A stretch of DNA of 64,000 nt from Mannheimia granulomatis (lineage in GTDB: Bacteria > Pseudomonadota > Gammaproteobacteria > Enterobacterales > Pasteurellaceae): NCBI RefSeq assembly GCF_013377255.1, contig NZ_CP016614.1, positions 1,620,021-1,684,020 on the forward strand, given 5' to 3'. Under the pieces are notes generated by a model, which saw only the letters and a list, made by a program, of their open reading frames with translations, was not told where the DNA came from and did not search any database. The stretch's first letter is position 1; every line of letters starts with the position of its first letter. Made by a program: the position numbers and the translations under genes. Shown here one piece after another: positions 59,031 to 60,317 of the stretch.

Positions 59031-60317
59031 TTATTTAGGAAAATCCAACAACTGCTCCCGATAATACTCATACTGTTTCCGTCTTAACGCAATTTCTTTC
59101 GGTAATCCTTCGCTGATAGAATTAGTCAAGCGATCGAATTTATCTAAAATTTTGACAATTTTTTGTTGTTCTGTTAATGAAGGAACAGGAATCTCATATT
59201 TCAAAAAATTATTTGAATTAAGGCGAATGACTTTTGTTCCTTGTGCATATTTTTCTTTATATTTTGCAAAACGTTCTGTTTGCAATAAATAGGTAAGATA
59301 TTTTGTTTCTAAATCATTATTAGGTCTAAATGCAAACATATCACCTGAAAAAACTATTTCATCGCCTAACCAACCTAATGGTTTCATTACATCTTCAATG
59401 TTTTCACTTGTCCCCGCAATTAACACATCGCCTTTTCTGGCTTTTTTGAGTTTTTTGGCTAATTCAACAGAAACAAAAGACTTCGTTTTATCTGCAAAAG
59501 TACTATAATAAGTATAAATCTGCCCATAATGAATTGCAGGTACTCCACTTTCAGTAAAATCTTTTTTCTGTAATCCATTTCCACGAATTAACTCACCAAC
59601 TTCCCCCAAAGCCTTAAACACCACTTGACCACTGTGGTACAAGGCTTTGGTGATGTCATTATACCCCCCCCTATCTAAATCTTGCGGGAATGTCAATAGG
59701 GTTTCTCGGTAATATTGATATTGTTTTTTCCGCAGTGCTAATTCAGCTTCCAGCGTAGCTTCCAGCTCAGTGAATTTGTCAAGTGTTTTTACAATTTTTT
59801 CTTGGGTTGAGAGTGGGGGGATTGGGATTATTATTTTAGCTAATTCCTTCATTGGAACACTTTTAACCGTACCTCCAGCAGATTTACTTAAAAAATCTTT
59901 TCTAATGAAATCTATTTCAAAAAGATATAAAAGGAATTTAGGCAAAATTATATTCTTCTTTGGTTTTATGGCATAAACTCCTTCTTTGATATTCCAATTC
60001 CTAGGTTCTTTGTCAATCAGTGCTACATTTCCAATAGTCCCTGTTCCAGAAAATAAAATATCTCCAATTTCTAAATTAGAACGGTTATTACATAATTTCA
60101 ACGCTTCATCATTTAATTTATCAGTTTTATCAGTAAAAATGATTTTATGATTTTGTAATTCTCTAATTGTTACATAGTAATTAGTTGCATCAGGTGTATT
60201 TAATGTAAAAAATTGTCTTGGATTTAAACCTGTTTTTATCGAATGACAAACTTCCCCCAAAGGCTTCCACTCAACCTCAGCCCCATTTAATAATTTCTCA
60301 ATAATTTGATTACTCAT
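59031..60317 (-). CDS. hsdS: Type I restriction-modification specificity subunit HsdS (two target-recognition domains, type IC-like)
   Basis: Two variable target-recognition domains separated and followed by the conserved repeats [20 protein letters not shown] and [20 protein letters not shown]. Confidence 0.9.
   Translation of the reverse strand: [428 protein letters not shown]
59664..59671 (-). repeat. G8 homopolymer in hsdS (C8 on the + strand), codons R-G-G of the DLDRGGYND segment at the start of the second target-recognition domain
   Basis: Read directly: ATACCCCCCCCTATC. Confidence 0.9.

What the first reader, a model, noticed from the sequence alone, without database searches (positions are those of the whole stretch)
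59664..59671. G8 homopolymer in hsdS exactly at the boundary between the central conserved repeat and the second target-recognition domain: candidate phase-variable specificity switch
The hsdS coding strand has GGGGGGGG encoding R-G-G in ...[12 protein letters not shown]..., immediately after the central conserved repeat. Slipped-strand change of one G would terminate HsdS after the first target-recognition domain plus the central region. For type IC systems (EcoDXXI/EcoR124), such half-HsdS proteins are known to dimerise and give a new, symmetric specificity. Neisseria NgoAV is a natural example, with a poly-G-controlled truncated hsdS. Pasteurellaceae are well known for repeat-mediated phase variation of R-M genes.
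Basis: partly seen in the sequence, partly recalled or inferred. Interest (0 to 1): 0.6.

Follow-up and report, generated by a model that had tools for sequence, protein, structure and literature searches.

The report
Poly-G switch in type I hsdS
An eight-G run in the DNA-specificity gene of a Mannheimia granulomatis restriction-modification system matches a known gonococcal slippage switch, and it changes length between otherwise identical strains of related cattle pathogens; it is a real but already familiar kind of switch.

Summary
The hsdS gene (59031-60317, minus strand) has G8 at 59664-59671, coding AGG GGG GGG = R-G-G. It is the only G or C run of 7 or more in the 64 kb. It lies in a 17-residue linker, exactly where the two internal repeat halves of HsdS meet.

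G9 or G6 stops translation one codon later, giving ...[13 protein letters not shown]. This end aligns with the native C-terminus ...LLDFPK*. G7 or G10 adds a 24-residue tail.

The system is type IC: its HsdR carries the EcoR124_C domain, its HsdS conserved regions match EcoR124II, and prrC lies between hsdS and hsdR.

The central conserved DNA, including a 12-bp LEAT repeat, is shared with Neisseria gonorrhoeae NgoAV. The NgoAV poly-G aligns to the same column.

In Histophilus somni, which carries nearly the same hsdS allele, 4.9-kb loci differ only by G8 versus G9. In the syntenic M. haemolytica locus, 20 strains carry G6, G7, G9 or G10 and 0-3 extra repeat copies. The compared pairs have 0-1 substitutions over 3.5 kb.

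The three M. granulomatis assemblies found are all G8, so switching in this species is inferred, not shown. This is a new member of a known kind, and interest is moderate to low.

The parts
59664..59671 (-). G8 homopolymer (C8 on the plus strand); with the preceding A it codes AGG GGG GGG = R216 G217 G218. This is the proposed slipped-strand site, here at an in-frame (full-length) length.
   Evidence: aligned with G5, G8 and G9 in relatives and with G7 in N. gonorrhoeae
59031..60317 (-). hsdS, 428 aa, type IC specificity subunit with two target-recognition domains
   Evidence: Methylase_S twice, E = 2.4e-44; EcoR124II HsdS, 7bst_A, E = 4.4e-42
59826..60245 (-). TRD1 (aa 25-164), preceded by the N-terminal conserved segment at 60246-60317
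   Evidence: nearly identical TRD1 in H. somni proteins
59685..59825 (-). Central conserved region (aa 165-211), the coiled-coil helix D1. It is fully retained in every frameshifted product.
59745..59766 (-). 12-bp in-frame repeat GCTGGAAGCTAC/GCTGGAAGCT coding LEAT-LEA(E), two units here. It is the counterpart of the EcoR124 TAEL and NgoAV LEAT repeat that sets the spacer length.
   Evidence: literature PMC3874165, PMC6789123
59634..59684 (-). 17-residue linker [17 protein letters not shown] between D1 and TRD2. It is absent from EcoR124II HsdS and contains the G tract.
59659..59661 (-). TAA stop read in the +1 frame (G9, G6, G12), one codon after the tract. The product ends ...DRGGV*.
   Evidence: the same TATAA follows the tract in all relatives
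59588..59590 (-). TAA stop read in the -1 frame (G7, G10). The product carries a 24-residue out-of-frame tail.
   Evidence: the corresponding H. somni G10 proteins are P0148 and P0146
59172..59633 (-). TRD2 (aa 229-382), lost from the product when the tract is out of frame
59034..59171 (-). C-terminal conserved region D2 (aa 383-428), similar in sequence to D1
61596..63143 (-). hsdM, 515 aa, intact
   Evidence: TIGR00497, E = 1.3e-200
57921..59015 (-). prrC-like anticodon nuclease gene between hsdS and hsdR, the EcoprrI arrangement
   Evidence: PADLOC PrrC, E = 1.8e-140; AAA_13
54869..57931 (-). hsdR, 1020 aa, intact, with the type IC C-terminal domain
   Evidence: EcoR124_C, E = 3.6e-70
60535..61464 (-). 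abiD-like (Abi_2) gene inserted between hsdM and hsdS

Best explanation
The G8 run is a slipped-strand (contingency) tract in the hsdS gene of a complete type IC restriction-modification operon of Mannheimia granulomatis. The operon order is hsdM-abiD-hsdS-prrC-hsdR, next to gyrA. The tract is the positional counterpart of the poly-G switch of Neisseria gonorrhoeae NgoAV.

At G5, G8 or G11 the gene codes a full-length HsdS (TRD1-D1-linker-TRD2-D2). This should direct methylation and restriction of an asymmetric bipartite site. The window is in this state.

Gain or loss of one G during replication puts TRD2 out of frame. The product is then N-terminal conserved segment + TRD1 + the entire D1 helix. 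It ends within a few residues of where the native protein ends relative to D2.

By analogy with EcoR124I(delta50), EcoDXXI(deltaC) and NgoAV, two such half-subunits should pair through D1 and give a symmetric site made of the TRD1 half-site twice.

A 12-bp LEAT repeat just upstream in D1 is a second, in-frame variable element that should set the spacer length.

Shown here: the anatomy, the frameshift products, homology of the module to NgoAV, and hypermutability of the tract in the closest relatives. Inferred: that slippage occurs at a useful rate in M. granulomatis itself, and that the half-subunit is active.
For: - Anatomy: G8 lies at the junction of the two HsdS repeat units, inside a linker absent from EcoR124II.
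- The G9 product ends ...[18 protein letters not shown]. The native C-terminus is ...[11 protein letters not shown].
- D1 and D2 are alike. The review PMC3874165 gives this as the reason type IC half-subunits can homodimerise.
- Type IC membership: EcoR124_C domain in HsdR, EcoR124II HsdS match, prrC.
- Homology to NgoAV: Neisseria HsdS1 proteins end ...[40 protein letters not shown]. In DNA alignment A1 the gonococcal G7 sits in the same column as the window's G8, downstream of the same GCTGGAAGCTAC repeat.
- Hypermutability in H. somni: the hsdS is 92% identical in DNA to the window's. It occurs as 428 aa (G8), 219 aa (G9), 243 aa (G10), and the same forms with one LEAT unit more or fewer. 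Over 4.9 kb, two G9 loci differ from two G8 loci at one column only. Two G9 Logan assemblies differ from two G8 loci (one NCBI, one Logan) at one column only.
- Hypermutability in M. haemolytica: in the syntenic gyrA-hsdM-hsdS locus, 20 loci carry G6 (2), G7 (13), G9 (4) or G10 (1), plus 0-3 full repeat copies. All but one of the 11 compared pairs have 0 substitutions over 3.5 kb. In-frame G8 and G5 forms also exist. The type strain has G9.
- The tract uses rare codons (P about 4e-4) yet is kept across genera.
- Precedent: NgoAV G7 and G6 give GCAN8TGC and GCAN7STCA (PMC9577141). LEAT number together with poly-G sets the PacBio motifs (PMC6789123).
Against: - No length variation was found in M. 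granulomatis itself. The three contigs that carry the exact PrrC neighbour all have the 428-aa, G8 hsdS. None of the four predicted truncated M. granulomatis forms I looked up (G9 and G7, each with two alternative starts) is in the protein collection.
- G8 is below the 9-nt cut-off used in the REBASE survey of phase-variable hsd genes (PMC7383803).
- Some length differences in public assemblies could be homopolymer sequencing errors. One long-read-style assembly (L010) has Ns nearby.
- In part of the M. haemolytica population hsdM carries a 1-nt deletion. There the tract may be drifting in a decaying system.
- Activity of the half-subunit and its motif were not tested.
Confidence: 0.65

Rival explanations
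1. The tract is hypermutable, but it acts as a simple ON/OFF (loss-of-function) site. Out-of-frame lengths give an inactive HsdS fragment, so the whole R-M system is switched off rather than re-targeted.
For: - In N. gonorrhoeae, about 47% of ngoAV loci are predicted to encode no active enzyme (PMC9577141).
- Some M. haemolytica strains also carry an hsdM frameshift.
- H. somni has other frameshifted hsdS forms that would lack D1, at IPIPP and inside the LEAT repeat. This suggests that loss of function is tolerated.
- The G7/G10 products carry a 24-residue foreign tail that might interfere with pairing.
Against: - The truncated product keeps the whole D1 helix and ends where the native protein ends.
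- All three tested type IC truncations of this kind are active as homodimers (PMC3874165).
- In the window, prrC depends on the R-M core in the EcoprrI paradigm (my own knowledge), which argues against routine loss of the core.
Confidence: 0.22
2. The G8 run is a static inherited feature in M. granulomatis. It came with a horizontally shared conserved-region module and does not switch at a meaningful rate. Differences among public assemblies are partly sequencing or assembly errors.
For: - All M. granulomatis assemblies found are G8.
- G8 is short.
- Homopolymers are error-prone in long-read assemblies, and L010 contains Ns.
Against: - Both lengths appear repeatedly and independently. The G9 form was read on 7 contigs and the G8 form on 19, including Logan contigs of 25-79 kb. 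I infer that the Logan contigs come from short-read data.
- Four different out-of-frame lengths occur in M. haemolytica with 0-1 substitutions over 3.5 kb in the compared pairs.
- G5, G8 and G9 are found in three type or reference strains.
- Published rates for G7-G9 tracts are 1e-3 to 1e-2 in other species (PMC7383803).
Confidence: 0.08
3. When the tract is out of frame, TRD2-D2 is still translated from an internal start. The two half-subunits then reassemble the wild-type specificity, so slippage has little phenotypic effect.
For: - Co-expressed N- and C-terminal EcoDXXI halves regenerate the wild-type specificity (PMC3874165).
- Gene callers annotate TRD2 ORFs of 176-198 aa downstream of the tract in M. 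haemolytica and H. somni.
- GTG and TTG codons lie in frame soon after the tract.
Against: - Reading the sequence, I saw no convincing ribosome-binding site or ATG just downstream of the tract. No scan was run for this.
- In NgoAV, hsdS2 gives no active protein (PMC9577141).
Confidence: 0.05

Closest known systems
NgoAV type IC system of Neisseria gonorrhoeae (poly-G in hsdS1/hsdS2; Adamczyk-Poplawska 2011, cited in PMC9577141; Sanchez-Buso 2019, PMC6789123)
   Same: - Same family.
- Near-identical central conserved DNA and protein (...[21 protein letters not shown].YYR...).
- Same 12-bp LEAT repeat.
- Poly-G in the same alignment column just after D1.
- Out-of-frame lengths give TRD1+D1 half-subunits.
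- A variable extra gene sits between hsdM and hsdS: Bro-N there, abiD here.
   Different: - Different TRDs, so different motifs.
- The linker sequence differs: DFDNQIGG there, [10 protein letters not shown] here.
- FA1090 rests in the truncated state (G7), whereas this window is in the full-length state (G8).
- prrC is present here. The N. gonorrhoeae loci fetched show no gene called between hsdS2 and hsdR.
- Switching and motifs are proven experimentally for NgoAV only.
EcoR124I/EcoR124II, EcoR124I(delta50) and EcoDXXI(deltaC) (type IC prototypes; PMC3874165)
   Same: - HsdS conserved regions align.
- A 4-residue repeat in D1 sets the spacer length.
- C-terminal truncations that keep D1 homodimerise and read a palindrome of the TRD1 half-site.
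   Different: - Those truncations were laboratory or transposon events, not homopolymer slippage.
- EcoR124II HsdS lacks the 17-residue linker that holds the tract.
G[n]-containing hsdS of Mannheimia haemolytica in the REBASE survey (Atack et al. 2019, PMC7383803)
   Same: - Same genus.
- Poly-G between TRD-coding regions of a type I hsdS, flagged there as phase-variable.
- I found a syntenic M. haemolytica locus with G5-G10.
   Different: - That paper describes G10-G12 and a three-TRD 'extended' HsdS (CAACN4GT versus CAACN5TC).
- The M. haemolytica loci I read have two TRDs and G5-G10.
- I could not establish whether they are the same locus.
- G8 falls below that survey's 9-nt threshold.
EcoprrI-PrrC (type IC R-M with an embedded anticodon nuclease)
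   Same: Gene order hsdM-hsdS-prrC-hsdR, with a strong PrrC match.
   Different: I know of no report of a poly-G hsdS in EcoprrI (my own knowledge). An extra abiD gene is present here. The related H. somni loci lack prrC. The M. haemolytica loci instead carry a longer (489-aa) gene with a faint AAA_13 Pfam hit in the same slot, which I did not identify further.

Membership tests
Type IC restriction-modification systems (EcoR124 / EcoDXXI / EcoprrI / NgoAV) | HsdR with the family-specific C-terminal domain | tested here: met
   PF12008 EcoR124_C, E = 3.6e-70, aa 722-1012 of the 1020-aa HsdR
Type IC restriction-modification systems (EcoR124 / EcoDXXI / EcoprrI / NgoAV) | HsdS conserved regions homologous to EcoR124 HsdS, with a short 4-residue repeat in the central helix | tested here: met
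   7bst_A (EcoR124II HsdS), E = 4.4e-42; [26 protein letters not shown] aligns with [26 protein letters not shown]
Type IC restriction-modification systems (EcoR124 / EcoDXXI / EcoprrI / NgoAV) | D1 and D2 dimerisation helices similar to each other (the stated basis for homodimeric half-subunits) | tested here: met
   The halves align end to end, 34% identity; [11 protein letters not shown] / [11 protein letters not shown] and [18 protein letters not shown] / [18 protein letters not shown]
Type IC restriction-modification systems (EcoR124 / EcoDXXI / EcoprrI / NgoAV) | Genetic complementation or antibody cross-reaction with family members (the original family definition) | not testable with these tools
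   Needs experiments
NgoAV-type poly-G phase-variable hsdS | Homopolymer located between D1 and TRD2 | tested here: met
   same alignment column as the gonococcal tract
NgoAV-type poly-G phase-variable hsdS | Out-of-frame lengths yield TRD1 plus a complete D1 | tested here: met
   219 aa (G9) and 242 aa (G7) both retain aa 1-215
NgoAV-type poly-G phase-variable hsdS | Tract length differs among strains whose flanking DNA is otherwise identical | tested here: inconclusive
   Met in H. somni (G8/G9, one difference in 4.9 kb) and M. haemolytica (G6/7/9/10, 0-1 substitutions in 3.5 kb in the compared pairs). In M. granulomatis only three assemblies were found, all G8.
NgoAV-type poly-G phase-variable hsdS | Reversible switching within a clonal population at high frequency | not testable with these tools
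   Needs raw reads or a colony-level assay
NgoAV-type poly-G phase-variable hsdS | Full-length and truncated forms both give an active methyltransferase, with different motifs | not testable with these tools
   Needs methylome data. The precedent exists only for NgoAV.
'Phase-variable hsd gene' as defined in the REBASE survey (PMC7383803) | Mononucleotide tract of at least 9 bases inside the ORF | tested here: not met
   The tract is 8 bases here; the threshold is stated. Relatives reach G9-G10. The same paper notes that shorter tracts (G7) can switch.

The most novel reading that the evidence does not exclude
In this operon the poly-G switch sits directly upstream of a PrrC anticodon nuclease, whose latency in the EcoprrI paradigm depends on the R-M core. 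Slippage in hsdS could therefore do more than re-target methylation. By swapping the full HsdS for a half-subunit dimer, or for nothing, it could stochastically change how PrrC is masked. A fraction of cells would then be pre-armed or disarmed for abortive infection. None of the evidence here tests this. The related H. somni loci carry the switch without prrC; the M. haemolytica loci carry an unidentified 489-aa AAA_13-like gene in that slot.
Probability: 0.07. Interest if true: 0.65.

Novelty: new member of a known kind. Interest (0 to 1): 0.35.

Why it matters
If the switch operates, one M. granulomatis clone would contain subpopulations with different genome-wide m6A patterns and different restriction barriers. 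That affects phage resistance, uptake of foreign DNA and possibly gene expression (a phasevarion), as argued for NgoAV.

The comparative result may be more useful than the single tract. A conserved-region module that carries both a LEAT spacer repeat and a poly-G tract is shared between Neisseria and three bovine or ovine Pasteurellaceae genera. It is visibly hypermutable in H. somni and M. haemolytica, two bovine respiratory disease pathogens.

Near-identical H. somni genomes with G8 versus G9 offer a ready natural experiment for methylome comparison. The result also shows that a 9-nt cut-off misses real members of this class.

Tried and rejected
- Exact look-ups of four predicted M. granulomatis truncated products (G9 and G7, each with two alternative starts) found nothing in the collection.
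- The look-up of the AbiD neighbour found no record. The PrrC neighbour found only three contigs, all G8. No within-species test was therefore possible.
- The genome-contig scan with the degenerate flank pattern found only three species representatives and no M. granulomatis record. The species representative presumably lacks this allele.
- The protein search with a 91-aa junction query returned only short fragments. It gave no length census, but it revealed the Neisseria homologues.
- The search with the 219-aa half returned distant TRD1 relatives, not the close-relative census I wanted.
- The FASEB survey has no supplementary tables held, and the 2011 J Bacteriol NgoAV paper is not held. I could not check whether M. 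granulomatis or H. somni entries were listed, or whether the published M. haemolytica G[10-12] three-TRD locus is the gyrA-adjacent one.
- The Rfam scan of 54000-64000 gave only sub-threshold chance-level hits.
- I saw no reason to invoke transcriptional slippage or programmed ribosomal frameshifting at G8. The observed variation is in the DNA itself. Neither possibility was tested.
- I did not run a structure prediction. A single-chain model would not test dimerisation.
- I did not use the metagenome scan, because strain-level data from isolates were already sufficient.

Full report
**1. The observation**

- The plus strand has C8 at 59664-59671.
- This lies inside a 428-aa minus-strand ORF (59031-60317) with two Methylase_S domains. 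On the coding strand it reads A-GGGGGGGG, that is AGG GGG GGG = R216 G217 G218, in ...[23 protein letters not shown]....
- It is the only G or C run of 7 or more in the 64 kb window (38.6% G+C). The i.i.d. expectation is 0.05 to 0.19 per strand.
- AGG is 2% of Arg codons and GGG is 14.6% of Gly codons in 33 long ORFs of the window. The chance that R-G-G is spelled this way is about 4e-4.

**2. The context**

- The gene order on the minus strand is gyrA, hsdM (61596-63143), an AbiD/Abi_2 gene (60535-61464), hsdS, a PrrC-type anticodon nuclease gene (57921-59015) and hsdR (54869-57931).
- HsdR carries the EcoR124_C domain.
- HsdS matches EcoR124II HsdS in its conserved regions (7bst_A, E = 4.4e-42).
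- The system is therefore type IC with the EcoprrI gene arrangement.
- The HsdS protein is 100% identical to Mannheimia granulomatis entries.

**3. Where exactly the tract lies**

- The two halves of HsdS align end to end (aa 3-212 against aa 5-213 of the second half, E = 3e-24). The end of the first half, LLTFPQ, aligns with the native C-terminus LLDFPK*.
- Relative to EcoR124II there is a 17-residue insertion ([17 protein letters not shown], 59634-59684) between the D1 helix and TRD2. The tract is inside it.
- With G9 or G6, translation stops one codon after the tract, at TAA 59659-59661. The product has 219 or 218 aa.
- With G7 or G10, translation runs on for 24 residues to TAA 59588-59590.
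- All these products keep the N-terminal conserved segment, TRD1 and the whole D1 helix.

**4. Relatives**

*Species representatives.*
- A pattern scan of one genome per species found the same flank in three genomes: H. somni DSM 23850 (G8), Actinobacillus seminis ATCC 15768 (G5) and M. haemolytica DSM 10531 (G9).
- In M. haemolytica DSM 10531, hsdS is split into a 200-aa ...DRGGV* ORF and a 198-aa TRD2 ORF at the same gyrA-hsdM locus.

*H. somni.*
- Cluster look-ups showed that H. somni carries almost the same allele. Its hsdS is 92% identical in DNA to the window's.
- It occurs in many forms:

| Product | Tract | Other change |
|---|---|---|
| 428 aa | G8 | none |
| 432 aa | G8 | one more LEAT unit |
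| 219 aa | G9 | none |
| 223 aa | G9 | one more LEAT unit |
| 243 aa | G10 | none |
| 239 aa | G10 | one LEAT unit fewer |

- At the DNA level, six fetched loci have G9: five H. somni loci (L005-L009) and L004, from an unidentified assembly with a different TRD2. Eight H. somni loci have G8.
- Over a 4.9-kb alignment, L005 and L006 (G9) differ from L012 and L014 (G8) at one column only. L008 and L009 (G9, Logan assemblies) differ from L015 (NCBI) and L017 (Logan), both G8, at one column only.

*M. haemolytica.*
- I fetched 20 loci through the out-of-frame TRD2 ORFs. They have G6 (2), G7 (13), G9 (4) or G10 (1), and 0-3 full copies of the 12-bp repeat.
- Ten of the 11 compared pairs have 0 substitutions over 3.5 kb and one has a single substitution. 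They differ by indels in the tract and in the 12-bp repeat, by a non-homopolymer 1-nt deletion in hsdM in some strains, and in one pair by one further 1-nt indel that I did not examine.
- In-frame G8 and G5 versions of the same allele also exist.

The tract and the neighbouring repeat therefore change far faster than the surrounding sequence. This is the signature of a contingency locus.

**5. Relation to NgoAV**

- A search with the junction region returned many Neisseria HsdS fragments ending ...[40 protein letters not shown].
- A fetched gonococcal locus (hsdM, Bro-N gene, hsdS1, hsdS2, hsdR with EcoR124_C) aligns with the window through the conserved region, including the GCTGGAAGCTAC repeat. 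Its G7 falls in the same column as the window's G8.
- The published record covers the rest:
  - NgoAV G7 gives a 208-aa HsdS1 that methylates GCAN8TGC. Loss of one G fuses hsdS1 and hsdS2 and gives GCAN7STCA. Ninety-two strains carry G6 to G9 (PMC9577141).
  - PacBio data show that LEAT number (0-3) and the poly-G frameshift together set the motif (PMC6789123).
  - EcoR124I(delta50) and EcoDXXI(deltaC) recognise palindromes of the TRD1 half-site. The TAEL repeat number sets N6 versus N7. Homodimeric S subunits are known only in type IC (PMC3874165).
  - The REBASE survey found that repeat tracts in hsdS always lie between the TRDs. It used a 9-nt minimum for mononucleotide tracts and flagged a G[10-12] hsdS in M. 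haemolytica (PMC7383803).

**6. Interpretation**

The most likely mechanism is slipped-strand length change of the tract. This toggles a full-length HsdS, the state in the window, and a half-subunit that homodimerises. The LEAT repeat acts as a second dial for spacer length.
- Shown: the anatomy, the homology of the module to NgoAV, and hypermutability in the nearest relatives.
- Inferred: switching in M. granulomatis itself (only three assemblies, all G8) and activity of the half-subunit.
- The main rival is a plain ON/OFF loss-of-function hotspot. Minor rivals are a static tract, and reassembly of the wild-type specificity from separately translated halves.

**7. Novelty and score**

- This is a new member of a known kind. 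It is an NgoAV-type poly-G hsdS in a species where, in the literature I could search, nothing on restriction-modification has been described.
- It falls just below the length threshold of the published survey.
- The H. somni and M. haemolytica polymorphism data, and the shared Neisseria/Pasteurellaceae module, are useful. A specialist would not find them surprising.
- Interest: 0.35.

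Noticed in passing
window 59745-59766 (minus strand): There is a 12-bp in-frame repeat, GCTGGAAGCTAC/GCTGGAAGCT, coding LEAT-LEA(E) in the D1 helix. Copy number varies from 0 to 3 full copies among M. haemolytica strains that are otherwise identical over 3.5 kb, and by one unit more or fewer in H. somni. It corresponds to the EcoR124 TAEL and NgoAV LEAT repeat that sets the spacer length.
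   Followed up: yes
window 59815-59820 (G6 on the plus strand = C6 in the IPIPP codons of hsdS): A second short homopolymer lies just before D1. H. somni proteins P0137 and P0142 (179 aa) go out of frame exactly after IPIPP, consistent with a C-run indel there. Such a product would lack D1 and should be null.
   Followed up: partly
window 57921-59015 (minus strand): A PrrC anticodon nuclease gene (PADLOC, E = 1.8e-140) lies between hsdS and hsdR and overlaps the hsdR start by 11 nt, as in EcoprrI. The related H. somni loci have an unannotated 174-176-aa gene in this slot. M. haemolytica has a 489-aa AAA_13-like gene there.
   Followed up: partly
window 60535-61464 (minus strand), compared with L005, L013, L019, L024: The slot between hsdM and hsdS holds a different cargo in each lineage: AbiD here, Fic in most H. 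somni, AbiD fragments in one H. somni (L013), a Bro-N protein in N. gonorrhoeae, and nothing in M. haemolytica. It looks like a variable insertion site for defence or toxin genes inside type IC operons.
   Followed up: partly
window 60439-60535 (plus strand): This is the best sigma-70-like site of the region: TTGACC-16-TATAAT, 11 of 12 matches, at 60439-60466. It points away from hsdS and into the 3' end of abiD, which is on the opposite strand. It is followed by a hairpin (60481-60526, -25.4 kcal/mol, z = -1.9) and CUUUCUUUUU. This could be a small RNA of about 60 nt, antisense to the hsd operon, running towards the abiD stop codon at 60535, or a terminator for the operon. There is no Rfam match.
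   Followed up: partly
H. somni proteins P0138, P0145, P0147: These truncated HsdS forms go out of frame inside the LEAT repeat (TELEAAGS*, TLEATLEAR*). This implies repeat changes that are not multiples of three, or assembly errors at the repeat.
   Followed up: no
L022, L036 (read) and probably L027-L029 and L038-L041 (same shortened or uncalled hsdM); alignment column 1454: Part of the M. haemolytica population has a 1-nt deletion (TATGTGG to TATGGG) near the 3' end of hsdM. It is not in a homopolymer. It shortens HsdM from 515 to 480 aa, so the system may be decaying in those strains.
   Followed up: partly
proteins P0268, P0269, P0273, P0283, P0309: Many metagenome-derived HsdS proteins of 210-230 aa, with a TRD1 of the same class, end a few residues after the D1 helix in G-rich tails (..NRGV*..NGGVLR*..NGGVCRKR*..VGGGNI*). 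This suggests that poly-G tracts at this junction are widespread well beyond Pasteurellaceae and Neisseria.
   Followed up: no
Genome-contig scan: The species-representative genome collection gave no M. granulomatis hit for the tract flank, although the window matches the pattern. The representative strain therefore seems to lack this hsdS allele or the locus.
   Followed up: no
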